From Conidiobolus incongruus B7586 (Eukaryota): 48,602 nt of DNA. Below, piece by piece: positions 1 to 25,120 of the stretch. Under the pieces are notes generated by a model. It ran no database searches and had not been told where the DNA came from. It worked only from the letters and a program-made list of their open reading frames with translations. How positions within the stretch are numbered: the first letter of the stretch is position 1; each line of letters begins with the position of its first letter. Both the position numbers and the translations under genes were made by a program. The stretch spans positions 1-48,602 of the forward strand of contig JNEM01006243.1 of assembly GCA_000697335.1 (NCBI GenBank), in the 5' to 3' direction.

Positions 1-171
1 TAGGTTCAATTAATAATAGATATAATTTATTAATTATTTTTAAAAAATATATATTTTAGTATTATATTATAAATAATTTAATAATAATTTAATTATTATT
101 TTTTTAAGTGATTTATTAATTTAATTGATAAAATAATTTATAAATAAACTTACAATAGAAATTAATTGCCA

Positions 172-1314
172 ATAAGATATAATCCAAAGGAAAACTTGAA
201 TTAATAATTATATAACAAATTTGGAATATTAATCATTTTATAGATATTTTGAATATATTAGTCGATATGGATAATTTAATTAATTTATATTATAAATGAT
301 ATATTTACATAGTTTAATATTAATTAATATAGTTAAAAATTTTAGAAAAAAATAATTATTAATAATAAAATAGAAGAATATATTGATATAATAAAAGTAA
401 AAAAAAGGAGCATATTTATGGGTGAAATTAATGATATCTATAATTGAAATAACTTTACTAATATAAATTAATTGATTATTTAAAGTCTGATATTAAATAT
501 AAAGTTATATAAGAAGTTTTATAATAATTTTTCAATAAAATAAAAATAATATAAAAACAATTTATTATTTATTTAATTAAAACTCATTTGACAATTTAGT
601 AGCCTTATACAATATAACTCTCTTTTGAGGTTTATTTAATATAAACCCTATTTTTATTAAATTAGATATAATTCATTATAAAATAATAATTTCATTCTTT
701 AATTTTTAAAACATCAATTAAAATATTTATAGCTAAAAGTAAATAATATTAATTTTTTACTGTTTAAAAAAATAAAAAATAGTTGAATTATTTATACTTA
801 ATATTATATATTACTTTATCTATATTAATTTATACTATATTTAAATTTTAAATTCTTTGAGTTATCTTTGATATTAAAATTAAAATTTTTTGAAACTTTT
901 AAAAATTGTATTTATAAATTATTTGTTGAATATTTTGAAAGAATATTGTTTTTGACTACCAGAGCCTAAGGTTAACTCATATATATTTAGACTTAAGAGC
1001 TTATTTAATAAAGGAAGAGAATACCTTTGGTGTATGGTAGTTATTTATATAAGCATTATATAAGCAAAATATAAAATAATTAAGGATATTTACATATAAA
1101 CTTGGATTAAAAAAACTTTCAAATGTCTTTAGTATTATATGGGGACAAATCAAAATATCAATGCTACTAGAATATATTTTTTATTATCTGATATTTAGTT
1201 CATTCAGTCTTACAAGGTTGGTGTAGGGGCTTACTCCAACGGTGTCTCTGGACTCCATGCTGGATTTGGATGAGGGCGATCAAATTGATTAACTTGGTCA
1301 AGTTTAACTATAAG
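172..1314 (+). mobile_element. Degenerate Fanzor2/TnpB (IS607/IS200-605-derived) element relic, copy 1
   Basis: + strand reads N-K-G-R-E-Y-L-W-C-M-V-V-I (from 1007), K-H-Y-I-S-K-I-*-N-N-*-G-Y-L-H (1051-1095), K-L-G, and K-T-F-K-C-L-*-Y-Y-M-G-T-N-Q-N-I-N-A-T-R (from 1112). Reverting mostly G>A/C>T changes gives NKxREYPWC..EHYTSKTCGNCGYLH.KLG..KTFKCPQC....DRDINAAR, the TnpB/Fanzor Zn-ribbon + RuvC-III signature. Weak N-terminal remnant IRYNPK...FG at 172-225. The left boundary is uncertain and may lie outside the window. Confidence 0.8.
1200..1314 (+). ncRNA. Candidate omegaRNA scaffold / transposon right end of Fanzor relic 1
   Basis: GC-richer non-coding segment directly after the RuvC-III remnant, homologous to 21525-21640. 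Hairpins GTTGG..GTA../..TAC..CCAAC (1217-1240) and AACTTG-GT-CAAGTT (1291-1304). Confidence 0.5.
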
Positions 1315-4166
1315 TAAATATAATTTCAAAATTATTTATATTCTTAATTAATTAATAATATAACAATTTAATCTTGACTTTATTATATTAATCACTCATA
1401 TAAAATACTTCCATTTAAAATTAATAATTTATTATGATATAAATTATAGCTAGTATTTAATAAATTATGGTATTTATTATGACTTGGAACATTTATGAAT
1501 TTAATGGGTACTATTGGCATTAATTCTTCAGAAATCACATGATTATATCTATCAACTGCATAATTCCGCAATATTAAAATTTGCAAAATGATTTTTAGTT
1601 GAATTAATGCTCTTGTGATTTTTGAAATGCAAAAGGTGCAACTTAAACCGTTCAAATTAATCAATTCAAGTAAAATTTTAAAACATCGATTATATCTAAA
1701 TATTCAAGTATCAATAGATATTTTTAAATACTTTGTTAGATAAAACCTTGAATATAGTTTAAAATTTTAAATAAATATGCAAAATAATGAATTCTTGAGG
1801 TTCAATGGATTTTTGTAATTACGTTAGTTGTTAATTTTTAAATTGGTCTATTCACAAGTAAAATAAGTTGTTTGGACTAAATTCTCAATAGAGGTTAAAC
1901 AACTAGATAAATTATAATTGAAATGGAACGATTTCTTTTTGAATTGAAAAATCTCAAACATTAAAATGTATTAGCAAATCCACAATGCTTCGGTTATATG
2001 AAAGATGCTTCGGAAAATATAAAGTATATACCCATTAATACATTTCAATTCATCCACAAGTCTTGGATATTTAGTCAAATATGTTAATTTTCATTTAAAT
2101 TTATTTATACCGAACAAAAATATTAAAAAAGCTATACCTGTCAAAAGTTAAATATGCAACCAGTAAAATGTTAAATGACTAGTAAATGATATTAAAAAGA
2201 GTACCAAATGGTTGATGATCTTTATCAGTTTATAATAATGAATAAATATTTAATTCAAAGAAAATTATCTCTCAAAAATTCCATCATATTGATCAATCGT
2301 TTAATTATTCATTAATGTGTAAAAATAAAAGAGATATATCAGTAAGTTATTATCAATTTCAAATGATAAAAAACAATAATAAAATGTATTAAAAATAGAA
2401 AATGGATTCTTATAAAAGGTTATAGTTAAATATAGGAGATAATTTTAATTAACTAAATAATAGATTCAGAGAAGTATTTAAATTAAAAACAGGGTTGTTG
2501 AATTAGTTAAATTGAGTGGTATTTTATTTTATCTCTTTTGGTTTATTACGTAAATTTAATGTAAATCTTTTCAACTGAAATTTCCAATAGATGGTTAGTA
2601 AAAGTGATAATTCATGTATAATGAATGATTTTTCCAGAAGTTATGTGTTTTGTCTTCTTAATTGAAAAATAATTGTTCATCTAATTCTCTATTATTAAAC
2701 TGATATTCAAATATTGAATAAATTTAGAGTAGAAATTGATTTTAGCTAGCGAATTTACCGATAAAATCATTAAAGTCAATTTTCAATTGAAAATTCCTTT
2801 TCGTAATTATAATATTATGCTTATTAAATTATTTAGTTAAATTCAAAAGCAATTGGTACTGAAACATCCTTTCAAATATTTAATAACATTATGTAACAGA
2901 AATCAATATAATATATGTTTTGTTATCCATCGCCTCTATCTGATTATGTTTGAATTTTCAATAATAACCAGTACCAACCAACAGTTACTTACCAATATTG
3001 GTAAGTTTTGGCCACCAACTAACCAGAATTCGCATATGTCAGGTAAATATATTAAATTGCAATTTTATTTCTAAAAATCCATGCTAAATTATATAACAGT
3101 TGATTGATATAATTTTACCCAATCATTATTTCCAAGTTGATATAATATTAACATAGTATTGATAATATAGAATTTTATTATTTTCAATGATATTAAGTAT
3201 AATAATTGTTATATTAGAGTAAAATTTATCTATATGATAATAATTCTAAATAATTATATTAAAATTACTAAAATTAGCAAAATTTTATCAATAGATCAGA
3301 GATTGTAATATAGTTATAGTCCAATGAATACAAGAGAAATATTAGCTTCTAAATTTTTAGTCAATTAATCACCTCAATAAATAAAACAAAGGTGTGTGGT
3401 AAATGATACTAATATTAATATAGTACTATTAATCAAAAAGTGTATATATGATAAAATCTAATTCGAAAAAGGGAGAGCTTAAAAAAAATTCAGTTCAAAA
3501 GGAGAGATTCATATTGTTCAAATCTAAATTATTCAGTATCAAAGGATTAAAGCAGCTAAACGGATGAAAATTATTTAGTCTCAGACTAGACCCTGAAAAT
3601 CTTAGACCATTTTAGTCCAACATCTTGACTAATAAGCTATACAATTCCTATAGGAAATCGAATTCAGGAAGTACATTAAATAACATTTAACTATTTTTAA
3701 TATATGTAGCATCTCCTATATTCCAATGTTGTACCCTTTATTCTTGTAAATATATGTTTCATAAATTTATTTATCAATTGTATTCCTTTTAAGTTAGTCC
3801 AATTATTCTAATTATATCGAGTTTCGATTTAATAATATATTTTAATATATTGAATCCAATCATATCGAATGTATTCATTCCCAAATATTTTACTTCTCCA
3901 CACTTAGATTGCCTAATTGGGAGACTATGATTCTAAATCACTGAATTTATGAGTGCATTTGTCACAACATTTTGAATTTTATATTTGATGCCCATTGTTA
4001 TGTTTATCAACTTGACAGGAGTAGGTAAGGACTAAACACATCATGAATTATGAGTTCATCTTAATTGATGGTATGGGTGTAAAATTAAATTGGTTTAAAT
4101 ACTACCTCTCCGTCATGATAGTTGAATCAAATTAGTTTGATTTGTATAGTCTAAACTTGAATTAAA

Positions 4167-15309: not shown

Positions 15310-18300
15310 TTACTGATTCCAGCCATGATCATTCCTACGTTTGACAGGAGACGTTGGAAAAGTGCGTCCCTTGCCAAAACTCCTATCAAAGCTCAAATCT
15401 TCTTGCATTGTAATATCACCATTCAACGTACCAGGATCTTTGAACACTGTATTGAAAGGATTCTTATTATGGTAATTCTGGTTTGGATTCTGCATAGTGT
15501 TATTCTTTCTAGGCCCAATCTTAGGTAATGGACGTCCCGTAGTTACCGGTTTAAACACTTCTGGAAGATGTTTCAAAGGTTGATTTTCATCTACAATACC
15601 TGATTTGTCAACCTCTTCCTCCAGCAGTTTATCATGTAATGTATCCCATTGTACTTGGTTGAATTTGTCAAATTCTTCAATAACTGGAGAAACAAAATTT
15701 TCCAAATCTTTGCTCAGTTGCATATCGAGAGTGTGCTCGTTCAACGTCTCTTCCGATCCTGATGATGGTGGTGGGGTTTTTGACTGTAATTTCTCCAAAT
15801 TGTCCACGATATTCTTCTGCATGTTGAGATAGTCCTCCATCCTAGATTGGATCAGACGGTTCTGCTCCTAGATCGTTTTGGCTTTTTGCGCTTCTTTCAT
15901 AGCTTGGCGTTTGCTACGTTTAATCAGTGTCAATTCGTGCCACTCGGCCCATTTGCGAAATGGAATGCTTTCTGGTCCTTGATTATGCAAGTTCTTGTCC
16001 CCGTGACCGCCTTCTCCGTGACCTGTATCGGGACCGTCAATCTTTCTGGTAGCTCCCCAGTTAAAATCGTCGAATCGCCAGAATGCGTACGCTGGTAAGA
16101 CTAAATTCCAGATAGGGAGTGCTAGAATGAACACTCCCATCCACATGACATATGACGCTTTCTTGGTAGTTGTCAGGATGAGAACAGCTTGGAGTAAATA
16201 GGCGCCCGCCATCATTTCCAATGGCAGCAATACATCCTGACCCATAAAAGCAGCAATAATGAGATAAATGGTAAAGCACATACTTGCAGATAGCACTACA
16301 GTACCAATTAATTCCAACAGAATGACAAATTGCATTGAACAACAGAAAATACCACACAATTCAGGAACAAGTACTAATTCCAGCAGATTGTGAATGGTGG
16401 AACTGATCCATCGACGTCTTTGGGATAGCAATACGCTAAATTCGTCTGGAACTACGATTTTACATATAGCTCTAGGCACGTAAATCATTTTGCGATTGGG
16501 AAAAGTTCGCATCATTAGAGTAGTTAGGTAGCGGTCTTCACCCAACAGTAACAAATTCTTCTTATGTAATGTACTTACGTCGTTTGATGAATAATTGGTA
16601 ACAATATCTGGATTTGCTAAAACTGGGACATTGTAACCATCTTTGTTCTGAGCTTTAACGCGATACATACAGGAGGAACCCGAAAGACGTGCGACACCGC
16701 CGAAGATCGATTCGAAAGCTTTACCCAAATGATGACTGATATAGTATTGGTACACTTGTATTCGAGTCACCCAGGTATCTCGCTTGTTAGTTATTTGCGT
16801 CTCGCCGCACAAGCCCATAACTAATGGATCGCCCCCCATAGCAGCTACCATGATACCCAAAGCATCTGGCAATACTCTCCTATCGGCATCCACCATTAAT
16901 TCCAATTCATATCTGTCAGGTGCGACTCCCACTAGTTGACGCACCTTTTGGAAAATATCTTAATGCAGGGGGCTCATTGGTTCGTTAAAGCAAATAACTG
17001 CCAACCAATGCATCAAAATGAATTTAAGTCTCGTTTACCTTGATTACCAGCCTTGAGCTGCATTCTCTCATAAGGTAATCCATATTTGATAATTTTATAT
17101 ATAATACTCTGTGATCCAAAATATTATCTCTATGTGTACTTGAGCCAAATTGTGTTTTCAAGATCATCTCCAATTGCAATGTATGACTTTCGCTTTGGAG
17201 CTGGTACCCTCAGGTTAAAAGATTCCATAAGGTTGTGAAGGATTTGAGGTGTACTCTTTTCATTAGCCGATCCCGTAATATTGCCATCAACAATGACGAA
17301 TAATAGCTTGTGCATATCGTCATAATTGGACAATACTAAACTATTCAAGATATCCTTAACCGATTCCAACCATTCGAAATAACATGTAACTAATAACAAA
17401 ACGTGGCTCAACATATTTTTATCCCTCTTTTTACTATTAATCTTTCCTAACTTCCAACTCAAGAACCAATCGAAAGCCACAGGTGCCAAAAATTTTATGT
17501 GAGTCATAGTCAACAATATCATAGTGCTGCAAATCATAGCTATATTAGCAATAAAGCAACCGGTGGTAGTTCTATCCAATTTACCGACAACCAACTGCTT
17601 GTCAAAGCACAACACCAATTTTATGAGTGCGTAATTCCTTAAAACGTCCTTGGTAGCATCTTTCCCTATAAAACTTTGGAAGATCGGGTCCCACCCTTTG
17701 AAGTAGTGTTCTTCGTCCTTATCGCTGAAATATTCAGTGAGACTATACTTCTTGTCATTATACACGAAATACTTTGTATTTTGATCCCATGGAGACGTGA
17801 TGTTCTGCCAACTGTATACGACATAATCGTTCATTGCCAAATTCTTGAGCGTGGTCCAGCACTGTGTACTGATGTGACTACAGTTTTGTATCGTTGCCTA
17901 TCTTTTCCAGTTTTTTGCACGGATTTTTCTTGTTGTCCTCAGGCCAGAATTCGCACGTTGAGCCGCCCGAATCTGGGGGGAAGAAGTGTGAAATGCCGTG
18001 GCCGTATAATGTTTGGATAATTTCGTCTAAATCTTCGTCCTGAAGGGGTAGGATTGGATGATGGCCGCCCAATGGGAAGTACAGTCCCACATCGTATAAC
18101 TGACCTCGTATTATCATCAGTTTTTGGCCGCTGGATCGTGATCCGTGATCTCTGGCAACCCAGTCTACGAAGATTGGTATCTTTTTCTTACAAATTAAGC
18201 TAGCGAACCCAAATGTCAAGAAGCCCAGCATTGCCGAAATCAGGGCAATAATCACGCACAATGCCACCTTTTCACGCCAGGCTTGCTGAATTTTGGGATC

Positions 18301-20365
18301 TGTTAAATTGCCGAATTTTTTAAGGGCCCAGCTGAAGCAGCAGGCGTCACTACTTGCGAAAACAATTCCCATCGGGATTGAGGATTCAGTCCGAAGTGAT
18401 ACCATTTGTGCTTGTCGTCGATAGGTTTGCTCAAGTTGCTGAATTGAGCGGGTTGGTTCCCTTGGATAGCACCATTGCCTGAAAATGGGTCAATTGAGCT
18501 ATTGATGGATCCCTTTCAAGCTTTTCTTGCTCTCAGAGTATTCTGTCTATTTAAAGTAGAAGTGTACGACGGTACTTTAAGATCGGACAAATCCTCCGTC
18601 TTTTCAATTAACGGCTCCTCCAAACTGATATCGGCAAAATCATCCATAGTATTTTGTTTCTCCCAATTATCTGGCAAGGGACAAGGATAGGGATCGGTAC
18701 TACCCAAATCGTTGGGCATCGAAGGTTGTTTCTTGGAGCAAAGTTCTGTAAGATGATAAGCTGGTGTGGGCATTTGCAAACTATTCAAATCTGGGAATTG
18801 TTGTCCACGACTCAATTGTTTTTAATGACTTCTTTTGTATGCTCTATCTCCTATCTGCAAGATTTGAATCACTTTGGCGTGATCATCTTGCTTCACTAAA
18901 CTCAGTGCAGTTTGCGCTTGTTTGATTGTGGCATTTGGATATGCTCTAGCTTGTAATAGTAAATCAACGACATCTACATGGCCTGAAAATGATCCTATCA
19001 TCAGAGATGTCCAATCGTGAATGTCGGCAATATTGATACCTGCTCGAAAATCCAATAGTAATTTTACTGTTTTACTATGCCCTTGGAATGAAGCTATCAA
19101 GAGAACAGTCTTTCAGGTGTGATCCTTAAAATCCAGATAAGTTTGCATGAATGTACCGGTTGTAGTTTGAGGACTTGGAGACTGCGTCTGATAGTTAATC
19201 AATAGCCTCCGACATATTTCAGTATGACCTCCAGATGCAGCAGCCATTAATTGAGTTTGCAACAGTTTTGTAGCAACAAAAGGATCTACCTTATAGTACA
19301 ACATACGATCTACCTGGTCCAAAGAACCTCTCAAATAAGACTTATACAACGGAGTCTCGTCCGCCGCATCCTGATTATTCACATCAATCCCGCTCAAACT
19401 TAGAACCCAATTCAATATAGAAATTGGGAGAGCAGGATCCATACAACATCTCTGCAGCAGTGTAAAGCCTTGACTGTCGCAATACACATTCAAATCCATA
19501 TCCTTCCTGCAATAAACCCTCTGCAAGCCGTTGAGATCGTGCGCCTCTAAATGGTAAAACAATTGACTCACCAAATCTTTCGCATTCGTTTCCACGGGCG
19601 ATTCGGGATCATCGATTATATCCTGTAATGGATTATCTTCATCGTCATTGTAGTATACCGGACTTTTCGTATATTCCGGAGGGTCGAAAGCATCCATGAC
19701 TTTAGCCAAACTTTGGTCCAATATATCCACAGATTTCGTTTTGAAAATATCCTCAGGTGGTGGTCTTAGACTCTTGCTCTTTTTCGATAGAGATGCCGAT
19801 CTTGGATGTAAGTCAGATTCACTTAATAGTCCTTTGGTGTACACCATTTCTGGATGGTCTAAATCTATTGAATAAAAAATTTAAATTAAATGATTATATA
19901 ATTACCTTGCTTGGGTCCATCATCCAACATGCTATCATCCTCAAAGTCCATAGCTGCCCTTATCTGGCTGGTACTCTCCAAGCTATACTTGGAAGTGGAC
20001 GGAATCGGCTCCAAAAGACTGATCTAAGGCCTTATCAACTCACTATTCTCTATCCCTGCGTCGTCATATCTCGGTGGTTGACCACCGAACGTGGTGGGAA
20101 ACTTGCTCGTACTCTGCGTCGGCCTCTCCAGCTAGCTGGGCACCTCCATAATCGGCTCCAATCCCCCACCAGCTGGCCTGAACATATTATCGTTAGGATC
20201 CTGCCCATTCGTCTTGGTTTCTTTCGGATCCGGCGTTGAGTGAGTATTGGGACCTGCATTACCGGTACAATCCTCCAAAAAGATCTCATCAGTCAAGCCT
20301 CGCATTGATTCTTCCTCCTGAATATAAAAAACATCCGAATTGTCAGGACTTGAAATACTAATCAA
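15310..20365 (-). pseudogene. Disrupted chitin synthase (division 2, class IV/Chs3-like, cytochrome-b5-like domain) with N-terminal ankyrin repeats
   Basis: Colinear fragments: ankyrin repeats (19847-18822), QQAWREKVALC plus b5-like IRGQLYDV (18405-17878), VTCYFE..DGNITGS..STP (17840-17130), decayed GNxGKRD (~17050), MVDAD, LGEDRYLT and SQRRRW (16944-15868), then a C-terminal tail (15840-15310). Fragments are separated by in-frame stops and several frameshifts. The 5' boundary is uncertain. Confidence 0.9.
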
Positions 20366-21029: not shown

Positions 21030-21640
21030 ATATTAAATCAAGGTTTATATAAATTATCATTTGAAATATAAATATTTGGATATTATTTTACAAATATAAT
21101 TTTATTTCAATATATATAGTATTTAACATATTATGATCATTTTTAATATATTTTTCAAAATATCATTTTTATTTTTGCCTACAAAATAACATAATAAATT
21201 GAAATATTATTAATCAATCTTAGATATTAGGATAAATTTAGGAAAGTTAAAATAATATAAACTCTAGGTAATATCAAGTTTATTCAGTTTATGATATTAA
21301 ATGGCCTTTTTATTGATTTAAGAAAGCATATCAAATAAACCAAAAGATTACATTAAGTTTAAGGTAACAATTTATAACAGATTCTATATAAATAAAATAT
21401 ACAATAATTATATATATATAATTTAAATCAAGAAAAACTTTCAAATGTCCTTAATGTCATGTAATGATAAACAAAATTATCAATATTTCTAGAATCATAT
21501 CCTTTTGTTATATAATAGCCAATTAAATCAGGTTTCCAAGAGGATTATCAGAGCTTACCCACTTGGGGTCTTTGGACTCTATGCAGGATTTGGACAAGGA
21601 AAATCATAATTGATCAACTTTGGACAAGTTTGATTATAAG
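21030..21640 (+). mobile_element. Degenerate Fanzor2/TnpB element relic, copy 2
   Basis: W-P-F-Y-*-F-K (from 21302; cf. WSHYRFK), N-K-P-K-D-Y..K-V-T-I-Y-N-R-F-Y-I-N-K-I-Y-N-N-Y (21334-21411; cf. KVxICDE.YTSKTCGNC) and K-T-F-K-C-P-*-C-H-V-M-I-N-K-I-I-N-I-S-R (from 21434). Nucleotide homology with 1112-1314. Weak L-N-Q-G (cf. RuvC-I LDPG) at 21033-21044. Confidence 0.78.
21525..21640 (+). ncRNA. Candidate omegaRNA scaffold / right end of Fanzor relic 2
   Basis: Shares GCTTAC, GTCTyTGGACTCyATGCwGGATTTGGA, AATTGATyAACTT, CAAGTTT and TATAAG blocks with 1200-1314. Confidence 0.5.
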
Positions 21641-22599
21641 AATATAAATCCCAGTCAATCTTAATCCAATTATAAATAAACAAATTAATTATCAATGCTT
21701 TCATCGTCGCACGCACCTCAAAAAGTATTGAATTAGCAATTGTAAAAGAAATAATCAGACGCCGGGTAGAATGTTAGAATTCACTAAATCGGAACCATTA
21801 TTGGTTCAAATTGACAAAGATTAAGTCAAGCTAACTTTAAATTCGCTATTGCAGATATTACTAATAGTTAGATGAGTCAGAAGGAAGTGGATGTTGCTAC
21901 CAATTTGGGATATATCAATGGGATTGTTCAGGTTGCTAAGTATTTAATATACTTCAAATTGTGTGAATTGAATCACTTATAATTTATTAGTTTTAGACCA
22001 TATTGAAAATTTGACAAAGACTGATTGAAATAGCATCAAAAAATTATCCATGTTAATATTACATAAAAAGATCTCAATTAATCCCATTTTTTAGAGCTTT
22101 TAGCATCAGTTTATTTTCCTTGATTTGTTTGATTCAAAACACTTTTTCACACCTCATATTGGATAATGACAATATCATTTTCATTAGACTAGGTACTGCT
22201 ACTAGCACCTGCCAAGGATGCAGCTTTTTTTGCTTATCCAAAACCATTCTTGATATAATAAGTGATTTATTTGCTATGGAACATCCCAGTCTCTACACTT
22301 TATCACCTAGTCCCAGTATGATGGATATTGAGATGCAAACCAATATTAGAGAGATAGATAATGACTGAATATTTTATCTAAATCCACAGAGAGTTAACTT
22401 TTTATTAGGCTCCAGTATCATCTAAGCTCAAATGTAAAAATGATTCCAAGATCTTAAGAGTGGTAATAAATTGTTATATCCCAATGTTCCTGAGATCACT
22501 GAAGTTTAAACAATCATGATCTTCTTTCCAGCAAATTCCAATTATAGATTTATCAATTGAGATATTTAATTATTATAAATTTAAAATCAGAGGAAATTT

Positions 22600-25120
22600 T
22601 AGTTTTAGATTTTTATATTATTACCTTATATTTAAAGTAATGAGAAATTTTTTAATTTCTGATTTTTCAAACATATTATTAGTTTAAAATAAATAAATAT
22701 ATACAAAGTTAATAAGAAATTATATATTTTAAATATATATATATATAATAATTTTTTTGGTTAAAAAATTAACCTTTTAAAATTGGTTGTTTAATTTAAT
22801 TATACTTAAACTAAATAATAATTATCAAAAGTTTTTTATTTTAGTATTAGTATAATTTAACTATAAGCCTTTTAAAATTATTTATAATTTACAAGCAACT
22901 TTTAATAATAAAGTATTATTTAAATTAACAATTTATTACTAAGTAAATTATTTTAAGGTTAAAAGAAAAACTATTTAAAACTTGTTAAAATTTAAAAAAT
23001 TAACTTTAACTGTTATTTTTTTAATTATTAATAAAATGAAAAAATATATTAAAAAGTATTTTTTTATTTTAGTTAAAAAATTATTTAAGTATTTTAATAT
23101 TAGTTTTATAAGTATTTTATATATAATAAAGTTTAAACTCAAATTAATAAATAAAAATATAATATAAATACTTTATAATTTAATTAAAGCTTAAAAAAAA
23201 GTTAAATATTATTATTAAATAAAACTTATTAAAATATTATTAAAAGCTTAAACTTTTATAATAAATAATTATAATTAATAAATCTTAAATTTATATATAT
23301 ATTTTTTTATTAAAATATAAATTAAAATACTAAATTAAGTTAAATTAACCCCTTTTATAAATTTTTTTAAATAAGTATTTTATTAATAAATAAATGTTAA
23401 TTATTATAATAAATTATAATAGTATATACTACTTTTATTTAATTTTTAAAGGAAAATTAATTAATAATAAACTTTATATTGTTTTTTAAATAAAAGTATT
23501 TTTAATTAGTATTTTTATTATAATTTAAGAAAACTTATTATTTTATATCATTATTACAAAATATATAAATCTAAAACTATAAAAAACTTTCTAATTAAAA
23601 ATAATTAGAAAAAACTACCATATCTAATAACCTCTTTAAATTATAGCTTATATAATTATAATTGTTTTAAATAATTAAAAAACTAACTTATAAGAAAAAA
23701 AATTTTATAAAAAAATTTAATTAGTTTGTAAAATATTAAATTTCAATTTTTAATAAAAAAAATTATTTTTTAAGTATTTAATCTGTGTTAAAAGTATAAC
23801 AAAAAGTTATTAATAATAAAAGAAACTATTAAATTTATATTATATATTAATTTTAATCACAAAAAATTCCTATTATTAAAAATATAAAGTAATAATATTA
23901 TATTATTTTGAATCTCACTTAACAAATTTAACTATTTATTTAATTAATTTTACAATTCAAATAAAAATTATTTATAAAAAAATATTTAGTTAGGTAAAAA
24001 AATAAATATTAAAAAATTTTCTATATTAGTGTATATAACTATATATATTTAATAAAACATATAATATTAATGTTATTTGAATACTTATGACCTTTTTATT
24101 TATTATTATTATTAATACTACTCAATCATTATAGTTGAAATAAATTAAAATACTTAAAAATATATTTTATAAATTTAAAATAATTTTTAGTGATTGAAAT
24201 TTTACAAAAATTATATATTGATTTATTTACTAGATTTTTATTTTCTCCATATATTATTATATCAAATAAAGTTTTTAATCAAAGCAATATCAATTAGTTT
24301 ATATATTATTACTTTGAAAATTATATTAAATAAAACTAATATAAATTTATATTTATTGATCTAAATTATTATATCAAAAATTATCTGTGTCTAGTTTGCT
24401 TATTTTTGGTATTTTATCAAAAACATAGCTATATATAATTGCTTTGACTCCCCACTCATATTCAGCTTAGAAATTCAGCTACTTATAATAATAATTATCA
24501 GTTAATTTGATTAAAATAAAATTTCAATCACTTTAATTATTATATCTAATTATTTTTTATTTTAAATTCAAGTTCAATTCATAAAATAAAAGATTTAAGT
24601 TTTTACCTTGTAATATAATTAAATATAATTGATTACATTCATTGATAAAGCTTTCATTATTTTAAAATTGGTATAATATAATTGAATAAATATTTGAACT
24701 ATATATTATTTAATTCTGAATAATAATAATATACTTTTATAATTAATAAAGCTTTATTTTATTAAATATTTCAAAATTTATATGTAAATTATTAATAAGA
24801 AATTCTTTCACTTCTATTGAGTGTATTATATAATGTATTTCAGAACAGATATGACTTTAATATTTGATTAATAAGGTTAAAGAATAAAAGAGTTTTAAAT
24901 TCAAATACATTTTGTTCTATAAATTAGTATTTATCTCAGTCTAAATATTTTTTATTATTATGATATTTCAGAATTTCATTTGATTCAATTGTGAATAATT
25001 TTGTAAGCTGAATTAATAAAATAATACTTAATATTTCATCAATTAAAACATAAAATTACTTTTATTATGTCTTTAATATATACTATTGATAAAATTTAAT
25101 ATTTCTTGTTAATCATTTTT
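22600..25120. other. Extremely AT-rich, deamination-scarred (RIP-like) region, probably a decayed repeat
   Basis: No CpG seen by eye between 21846 and 25120. In ~22800-23800 the surviving C/G sit mostly in ACT/AGT/AGCT contexts, with few CA/TG. Confidence 0.6.

What the first reader, a model, noticed from the sequence alone, without database searches (positions are those of the whole stretch)
172..1314. Hidden Fanzor2/TnpB RNA-guided nuclease relic in an ORF-less AT-rich stretch
Seen: in apparently junk DNA the + strand carries, in order, NKGREYLWCMVVI, (E>K)HY(T>I)SK(T>I)*NN*GYLH, KLG, KTFKC(P>L)(Q>*)(C>Y) and (D>N)(R>Q)(D>N)INA(A>T)R. Most deviations are G>A or C>T changes, e.g. GAT CGA GAT > AAT CAA AAT. 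Known: TSKTC..C..(F.C..C)..DRD.NAARNI is the Zn-ribbon + RuvC-III C-terminus of TnpB and eukaryotic Fanzor OMEGA nucleases. Inference: this genome hosted a Fanzor2-type programmable nuclease family, perhaps undescribed in this lineage. Intact copies may exist elsewhere, or an ancestor could be reconstructed.
Basis: partly seen in the sequence, partly recalled or inferred. Interest (0 to 1): 0.88.

Follow-up and report, generated by a model that had tools for sequence, protein, structure and literature searches.

The report
Dead Fanzor2 jumping-gene remnant in fungus
An AT-rich fungal genome carries at least two broken tail-ends of a mobile element that likely once encoded a Fanzor2 RNA-guided DNA cutter together with its guide-RNA scaffold; the remnant is real but belongs to a family already catalogued in other fungi.

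Summary
The relic is real, but smaller than claimed. The motifs lie at 955-1175 over three frames and a second copy lies at 21299-21642 (70% identity over 342 nt, E 6e-33). Pfam on raw frames finds nothing. A frameshift- and C>T/G>A-aware alignment to real Fanzor2 proteins gives 81 bits against at most 27 for the best of 330 proteins on 15 shuffles; the opposite mutation direction gives 19. New here: 1174-1316 is the decayed right end/guide-RNA scaffold. Intact relatives pair a loop 5-mer with the bases before the terminal CG (23 of 30; covariation 0/500 shuffles), and both copies keep CTTA/TAAG. Two of three catalytic residues and three of four zinc cysteines are lost; 172-888 shows no Fanzor or TnpA signal. 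At least ten other contigs of the probable source sample match in part. The same subfamily is listed as FZ2 in arbuscular mycorrhizal fungi and Naegleria (Saito 2023 table). No intact copy was seen. This scan noted many Fanzors on other DNA, none look-alike by sequence. New member of a known kind; interest modest.

The parts
889..954 (+). Weak upstream fringe of the Fanzor2 coding remnant (FET motif region of RuvC-II); uncertain
   Evidence: Only the alignment to P0115 extends this far; the P0097 alignment starts at 937 and the 13-protein profile at 995
955..1175 (+). Decayed C-terminal coding part of a Fanzor2 nuclease: helix before RuvC-II, shifted catalytic Glu (codon 1051, now Lys), zinc finger (Cys codons 1072 stop, 1081 stop, 1124 Cys, 1133 Tyr), RuvC-III (codons 1148-1156, Asp now Asn); three 1-base deletions
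   Evidence: 95.7 bits against P0097, shuffles max 23.4; best-of-330 control; other contigs carry one extra base behind 1046/1048, at the first frameshift
1174..1316 (+). Right end / predicted omega-RNA (reRNA) scaffold, overlapping the former C-terminal tail
   Evidence: Top match of 25 in the window to a covariance model built only from 17 intact relatives, full model length, E 0.22 (weak); 98 of 141 columns identical to copy 2; GLTP/GVGAY tail shared with relatives
1229..1234 (+). 5' strand of the predicted pseudoknot (GCTTAC)
   Evidence: Same offset (+54) from RuvC-III as the partner motif in relatives (mostly +49 to +107)
1260..1308 (+). Predicted terminal hairpin of the scaffold
   Evidence: -12.6 kcal/mol; copy 2 folds alike at -13.6; whole-end folding is not better than shuffles
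1311..1316 (+). 3' strand of the predicted pseudoknot and element terminus (TAAGTA; relatives end TA[AG]GCG)
21299..21642 (+). Second, more decayed copy: coding remnant 21299-21496 and right-end scaffold 21497-21642 (GCTTAC at 21553, TAAG at 21637)
   Evidence: blastn 70% over 342 nt, E 6e-33; 61 bits against P0097, shuffles max 23.5; second-ranked covariance-model match, E 0.77

Best explanation
Window 955-1316 is the broken 3' end of a repeated element whose sequence matches Fanzor2 nucleases and their right-end RNA scaffold, and it likely descends from an IS607-type transposon that spread in this fungal genome and then died. Shown: C-terminal nuclease motifs with Fanzor2 spacing, a conserved non-coding end, a second copy, partial matches on further contigs, loss of the RuvC-II Glu, the RuvC-III Asp and three zinc cysteines, stops and frameshifts, and a strong excess of C>T/G>A change. 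Inferred from relatives and papers: the ancestor carried a serine-recombinase TnpA upstream, made a ~140-nt scaffold RNA closed by a pseudoknot that ran into the flanking DNA as guide, and cut matching DNA, likely helping the element to be kept or restored at its site. Inferred: this copy makes no nuclease; its 5' part was deleted or eroded beyond recognition by GC-to-AT mutation with no strict dinucleotide context.
For: copies; protein match with shuffle, strand, best-of-N and direction controls; nearest intact protein is closest to ApmFz2 among solved structures, next TnpB E 6e-12; TnpA-like ORF in 52 of 80 metagenome and 54 of 79 viral loci of relatives; pseudoknot pairing found blind by RNAalifold, 97% of 101 cells paired, 19 compensatory, 0/500 shuffles; both copies rank 1 and 2; metagenome Fanzor2 group scores higher than prokaryote-genome TnpBs: max 74 vs 55, median 41 vs 27; PMC11832414 and 10.1101/2023.08.09.552727 passages for the defining features.
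Against: No Pfam hit in any raw frame; a plain amino-acid profile of distant Fanzor2s was not significant (14.0 and 18.6 bits, below unrelated tiles); covariance-model E-values are only 0.22 and 0.77; the ends fold no better than shuffles (z -0.05 to -1.25); RuvC-I (DPG), HTH, TnpA and a left end were not found, so IS607 mobility is inferred from relatives only; one prokaryote-bin contig of 2.1 kb (L171) scores 54.7; the scoring model is my own and its bits are not HMMER E-values.
Confidence: 0.88

Rival explanations
1. The element is a Fanzor2* or 'ghost' derivative: a non-autonomous element that kept the right end and guide scaffold and was moved in trans or by a eukaryotic DNA transposon, after the nuclease gene had died.
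For: Both copies lack recognisable sequence upstream of about the same point; the scaffold is richer in G+C than the coding remnant in both copies (52/138 vs 52/216, P 0.008; 49/142 vs 37/198, P 0.001) while 20 intact relatives show no such step (0.46 vs 0.44); ghost loci and Fanzor2* are described.
Against: Identity between copies is the same in coding and end parts (127/180 vs 98/141); shared G/C sites differ only at P 0.10; other contigs still carry the base missing at the first frameshift and a tail that reads in frame like relatives; no inverted repeat or duplication was found at the ends; the ancestral GC of the coding part is unknown.
Confidence: 0.2
2. The relic is a prokaryotic pro-Fanzor/IS607 TnpB acquired directly from a bacterium, or contaminating DNA.
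For: Cyanobacterial IS607 TnpBs share the shifted Glu (67 of 68), so the motif alone cannot separate them.
Against: Prokaryote-genome proteins score lower than the eukaryote/virus-type set; cyanobacterial rows form their own clade apart from the copies; copy 2 sits between fungal genes in the same window and both are eroded to host-like AT content; one contig spans 960-1340 in one piece with flanks in each of two runs of the probable source sample.
Confidence: 0.05
3. It is a Fanzor1 remnant of a Mariner/MuDR/Helitron element, the commoner type in early-diverging fungi.
For: Fanzor1 shares the shifted Glu and is widespread in such fungi.
Against: Four-cysteine finger with 14 residues between the CxxC pairs fits the Fanzor2 expression; pseudoknot present, which Fanzor1 lacks; P0097 matched no Fanzor1 structure among 18 hits. 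No Fanzor1 sequence was scored directly against the relic.
Confidence: 0.03
4. Chance motifs in AT-rich DNA.
For: Raw-frame Pfam, PDB and protein searches are blank.
Against: Second copy E 6e-33; best-of-330 null at most 27.3 versus 81.1.
Confidence: 0.01

Closest known systems
Fanzor2 of Glomeromycotina fungi (Diversispora epigaea RHZ81291.1, Rhizophagus irregularis CAB5365895.1 and CAB4385202.1, Gigaspora, Racocetra, Scutellospora; FZ2 rows in Saito et al. 2023 PMC10432273 Supplementary Table 1 and Yoon et al. 2023 PMC10711439 Table S2)
   Same: Same subfamily block (TWSHxRF...K.REYPWC.V....E.YTSKTCG.CG..H.KLGG.K.F.CP.C...DRD.NGARNILLR.L), compared by eye. P0091, one of the nearest proteins, differs at 3 of about 108 residues from RHZ81291.1 by eye. 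Many of those fungal rows are also fragments.
   Different: Here only the last ~90 codons and the right end survive, heavily C>T/G>A eroded; the host is a much more gene-dense, AT-rich fungus whose lineage was not determined.
ApmFz2 / ApmFNuc of Acanthamoeba polyphaga mimivirus (PDB 9B0L) in an IS607 element
   Same: Best structure match of the nearest intact relative (E 6e-28); shifted Glu, zinc finger, RuvC-III, pseudoknot to the last scaffold bases.
   Different: ApmFz2 is intact and active with a ~200-nt scaffold; the relic has a ~140-nt scaffold, no catalytic residues left in view and no TnpA.
Naegleria lovaniensis Fz2 (row KAG2381996.1) and unnamed metagenome proteins P0097/P0115/P0205
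   Same: P0097/P0115 are the best-scoring of 457 sequences and share the C-terminal tail overlapping the scaffold; the Naegleria row shares the RuvC-I to RuvC-II block by eye.
   Different: Hosts of P0097/P0115 are unknown; I did not verify that this Naegleria row is the assayed NlovFz2.
Cyanobacterial pro-Fanzor IS607 TnpBs (Microcoleus, Coleofasciculus, Hormoscilla)
   Same: DPG and shifted Glu; about 35-42% identity to P0097.
   Different: Lower scores against the relic and a separate clade.

Membership tests
Fanzor2 | Catalytic Glu six residues before the first CxxC (shifted RuvC-II) | tested here: met
   Position kept at codon 1051 (now Lys, one G>A away), then six codons, then the first Cys position; definition
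Fanzor2 | CxxC-x(12-18)-CxxC-x(4-8)-D zinc finger and RuvC-III spacing | tested here: met
   Spacing fits across two frameshifts; only 1 of 4 Cys is intact in copy 1, 2 of 4 in copy 2, whose first pair reads Tyr
Fanzor2 | DPG motif in RuvC-I, 120-160 residues upstream | tested here: inconclusive
   Not found upstream of either copy; scores at shuffle level. Present in the nearest intact relatives
Fanzor2 | Right-end RNA scaffold with pseudoknot to the last bases before the guide | tested here: met
   Covariation in relatives; CTTA/TAAG kept in both copies; model ranks both first but at E 0.22 and 0.77
Fanzor2 | Phylogenetic placement in the Fanzor2 clade | tested here: inconclusive
   X-read-through copies group with P0097/P0115 (100/98) but on long branches, 106 columns, read through by alignment to P0097 (circular) and without Fanzor1 rows
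Fanzor2 | Expressed omega-RNA and RNA-guided cleavage | not testable with these tools
   Needs small-RNA data and assay; this copy cannot encode an active enzyme
IS607 element | Serine-recombinase TnpA upstream, no TIR or TSD | tested here: inconclusive
   TnpA in 106 of 159 relative loci; none detectable upstream of either copy; left end not found
Fanzor1 | No pseudoknot, enlarged REC, TIR/Helitron host element | tested here: not met
   Pseudoknot motifs present; no TIR found; no Fanzor1 structure hit for P0097
Canonical RIP | C>T confined to CpA (or one other) context, positive composite index | tested here: not met
   52 transitions between copies: CpA 26, CpT 17, CpC 7, CpG 2; CpA excess P 0.15; 33 transversions; composite index -0.26 at 1001-1500 and -0.79 at 21251-21750

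The most novel reading that the evidence does not exclude
This fungus, if it lies outside the lineages in published Fanzor tables, hosts its own Fanzor2 family that still has young or intact members, and its guide-RNA ends have been kept under selection while a directed C>T process destroyed the nuclease genes, leaving a genome-wide set of guide-only loci.
Probability: 0.12. Interest if true: 0.6.

Novelty: new member of a known kind. Interest (0 to 1): 0.3.

Why it matters
It extends the record of Fanzor2 invasions of fungal genomes to copies that Pfam and protein searches cannot see, so published counts are underestimates; the mutation-aware alignment and the right-end pseudoknot are practical detectors for such fossils. 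The covarying end (loop 5-mer with the 5-mer before a terminal CG) defines the scaffold boundary for a large set of intact relatives (P0097/P0205, L016, L020), which are better starting points for a nuclease assay than this relic. The relic itself gives no working enzyme and no new mechanism.

Tried and rejected
Own genome not held, so copy number and intact copies could not be counted. Raw-frame Pfam, PDB, protein search (3 candidates, none scored) and viral-contig scan with the stop-read-through frame were blank. Rfam: no match in 1-2000. Exact 29-nt end pattern: no match in metagenome contigs; 22-nt pattern: only the two copies in the window. One search gave 3 loci; the one examined (L009) was a phage capsid gene, a chance match; the other two were not examined. 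One search found nothing. No RNA holder listed. Runs X5 and X7 (same species label, other samples) laid 0 records; no proof of absence. A nucleotide match of 115-566 to L162 looked promising (115) but 26 of 40 local shuffles reached it: rejected. A profile hit near 15312 vanished when scored on its own background: rejected. TnpA profile on the AT block 22500-24400 scored 19.3 and 18.5 (0/20 shuffles each) on only 14-16 residues, barely above the shuffle maxima 18.1 and 18.2: treated as noise. A regular-expression split by RuvC-II signature did not separate groups well. Canonical RIP rejected as the stated cause. No ESM Atlas result was obtained. No structure or complex prediction was run: no intact protein of this window exists. 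Literature: 'Fanzor'+'Zoopagomycota' 1 unrelated paper, 'Fanzor'+'Conidiobolus' 0, 'Fanzor'+'early diverging fungi'+'transposable elements' 0, 'IS607'+'fungal genome'+'relic' 1 yeast paper; these taxon names were my recalled guess of the lineage and no call confirmed it.

Full report
Setting. The window is AT-rich eukaryotic DNA with fungal-type genes (chitin synthase, Gti1/Pac2, MKT1, RIC1, DUF3712). The lineage was not determined; my guess of an early-diverging fungus is from recall and untested. No genome is held. Bases 1-950 are 11.7% G+C.

Observation. No raw frame hits Pfam (6 frames, 12 more), PDB or the protein collection. A repeat search showed a second copy; blastn aligns 990-1323 to 21315-21647 at 70% over 342 nt, E 6e-33, the next hit being 2e-07 low-complexity AT. 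Laying contigs of the probable source sample at 80% likeness on 960-1340 gave 11 records in X1 and 10 in X4 (one sample, not independent): one is the source itself, the rest are partial matches at 1015-1072 (contigs of 3.2-3.8 kb in X1), 1205-1283 and 1244-1286. Those at 1015-1072 carry one more base behind 1046 or 1048, exactly at the first frameshift. A 143-nt contig has word depth 72 against 14 for the source contig (the tool warns depth is no copy number; collapsed near-identical copies are one reading), and its loose 5' part translates as LLHYLTVNR, like the tail of intact relatives (LLRYFTLNR in P0097).

Protein identity. A motif scan of viral contigs gave 4 loci, two with a TnpA resolvase gene and a PF07282 protein closest to ApmFz2. 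A plain amino-acid profile of 45 such distant proteins did not detect the relic (14.0 and 18.6 bits, below unrelated tiles). I then scored codons allowing frameshifts and C>T/G>A decay. With the first profile copy 1 ranked first of 96 tiles (34.8; 0/100 shuffles) but an unrelated tile scored 32.8. With 159 proteins seeded from P0073, chosen because it resembled the relic, copy 1 scored 58.6 and copy 2 40.1 (46.2 at higher decay), shuffles at most 28.1. The nearest single proteins are P0097 and P0115 (457 sequences scored): 95.7 and 90.0 for copy 1, 61.1 and 62.2 for copy 2, shuffle maxima 22.7-27.2; without any mutation bias P0097 still gives 42.3 against 23.2 for the best non-copy tile. To cover seed selection, the best of 330 C-terminal pieces gave 81.1 on the real stretch, 18.4-27.3 on 15 shuffles and 21.0 on the reverse complement; with P0097 the direction C>T/G>A gave 81.1 and 49.1, the reverse direction 19.4 and 13.6, C>A/G>T 44.3 and 22.4, none 39.2 and 21.0. 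These bits are from my own model. P0097 carries PF07282, PF12323 and a sub-threshold PF01385 and its best structure is 9b0l, E 6e-28. The layout E-x6-CxxC-x14-CxxC-x4/5-D fits the Fanzor2 expression of Yoon et al. (passages). In copy 1 the Glu reads Lys, the RuvC-III Asp reads Asn, and the cysteines read stop, stop, Cys, Tyr: it cannot encode an active enzyme.

Extent. Alignments start at 995 (13-protein profile), 937 (P0097) or 889 (P0115). Upstream, Fanzor profiles scored at or under shuffle level in every setting tried, a TnpA profile from 119 ORFs likewise, a DNA match to L162 was matched by 26 of 40 shuffles, and residual G/C shows no codon periodicity. So 172-888 is unsupported: deleted, or eroded past detection.

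The right end. Scans with a 13-protein alignment gave 80 metagenome, 79 viral and 80 prokaryote-genome loci. Of the 159 metagenome and viral loci, 79 had the zinc-finger/RuvC-III pattern; 67 were distinct with at least 110 nt downstream; 30 of these had an end motif TA[AG]?GCG, and in 23 of the 30 the five bases before the final CG have a complementary partner upstream (permuted partners: mean 7.1, max 15, 0/2000). On 17 ends, picked by hand from those 30, RNAalifold proposed this helix unprompted: 97% of 101 cells paired, 19 compensatory, four of six pairs vary on both sides, 0/500 shuffles, slid controls 20-40% (relatedness is not removed by the shuffle). This matches the pseudoknot described for TnpB and Fanzor2 and absent in Fanzor1 (PMC11832414 and 10.1101/2023.08.09.552727 passages). 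Both window copies keep GCTTAC at +54/+56 and TAAG at +136/+140; copy 1 ends TAAGTA where relatives end TAAGCG. The model, built without window sequence, ranks 1174-1316 and 21554-21640 first and second of 25 matches, though only at E 0.22 and 0.77. Single-strand folding is not better than shuffles and Rfam has no match.

Relatives and origin. TnpA-like ORFs lie in 52 of 80 metagenome and 54 of 79 viral loci. Of 12 neighbour ORFs scanned, one is an NCLDV major capsid (L094) and one an Erv1/Alr oxidase (L045). Prokaryote genomes give mainly cyanobacterial proteins at 35-42% to P0097; they score lower against copy 1 (median 26.7, max 54.7, n 68) than metagenome proteins (41.5, 74.4, n 56). In a 70-row, 106-column tree the X-read-through copies join P0097/P0115 (100/98), away from the cyanobacterial clade, but with long branches and a circular read-through. 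A phmmer search of 1.84 billion representatives with P0073 added no closer protein.

Decay. 9 of 14 and 10 of 18 changed conserved codons need only C>T/G>A. Between copies: 52 transitions, 33 transversions, contexts CpA 26, CpT 17, CpC 7, CpG 2, CpA excess P 0.15; the composite RIP index is negative over both copies. This is GC-to-AT erosion without proof of RIP; RIP outside Dikarya is reported only as tentative (PMC11105155 passages). The scaffold keeps more G+C than the coding remnant in both copies (P 0.008 and 0.001), unlike 20 intact relatives, but identity between copies is equal in the two parts: unexplained, a weak hint of longer selection on the end.

How it most likely worked. Inferred from relatives and from the papers read: TnpA moved the element; a transcript over the right end gave a pseudoknotted scaffold plus about 15-20 nt of flank as guide; Fanzor2 cut matching DNA next to a TAM, which, from recall of TnpB work, favours retention of the element. 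Shown here only: the fossil anatomy, several copies, and death by stops, frameshifts and catalytic loss.

What is known. Bao and Jurka 2013 (passages) list Fanzor2 in four yeasts; Saito 2023 says Fz2 is found broadly in fungi (passages), and its Supplementary Table 1 (term searches; parts 98 and 99 of 158 read; file 2 unreadable) has FZ2 rows from Gigaspora, Rhizophagus, Diversispora, Racocetra, Scutellospora, yeasts, Naegleria, Acanthamoeba and Pandoravirus with the same sequence block; P0091 is nearly identical to the Diversispora row by eye. Yoon 2023 Table S2 has 9 Rhizophagus rows. Conidiobolus, Entomophthor-, Basidiobolus and Smittium had no rows in the Saito table and the first three none in Yoon's; Jiang 2023 (passages) Data S1 gave no hit for six taxon terms but seems to carry no species names, and its main supplement was too large to read. 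So a Fanzor2 in this host may be unlisted, but the host is not placed and the kind is known. Earlier notes of this scan: 2085 mention Fanzor, none resembles this DNA.

Verdict. Real, dead, multi-copy Fanzor2 3' end with its guide-scaffold; new member of a known kind; interest 0.3.

Noticed in passing
window 22600-24300: 1.7-kb block at 9.9% G+C with no CpG, TpA/ApT 1.17 and (CpA+TpG)/(ApC+GpT) 0.53; composite RIP index up to +1.05, the only clearly RIP-like stretch of the window. No Pfam, Fanzor or convincing TnpA match. Probably another eroded repeat.
   Followed up: partly
window 15868-18821, minus strand: A chitin synthase gene (PF03142, PF22997) is split over several frames with in-frame stops and no obvious intron ends at the three joints viewed; looks like a pseudogene or assembly errors.
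   Followed up: partly
window 1176-1313 and 21498-21639: Scaffold part keeps 35-38% G+C next to 19-24% in the coding remnant, a step not seen in intact relatives.
   Followed up: partly
L016, L017, L020, L047, L068, L072 and others, 3' of the Fanzor2 stop: A strongly covarying pseudoknot and a terminal TA[AG]GCG define the right end of this Fanzor2 subfamily; no Rfam family matched the window's version.
   Followed up: yes
L002 1862-3595 and 3000-3554 (minus); also L014, L023, L027, L094: The Fanzor2 reading frame extends upstream over the TnpA gene in a second frame.
   Followed up: no
L072 172-1137: A Tc1/mariner DDE transposase lies just upstream of an IS607 TnpA-Fanzor2 element whose protein is nearly identical by eye to a Diversispora row.
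   Followed up: no
window 1-950: Very AT-rich (11.7% G+C, one CpG) stretch at the window start with no assignable origin.
   Followed up: partly
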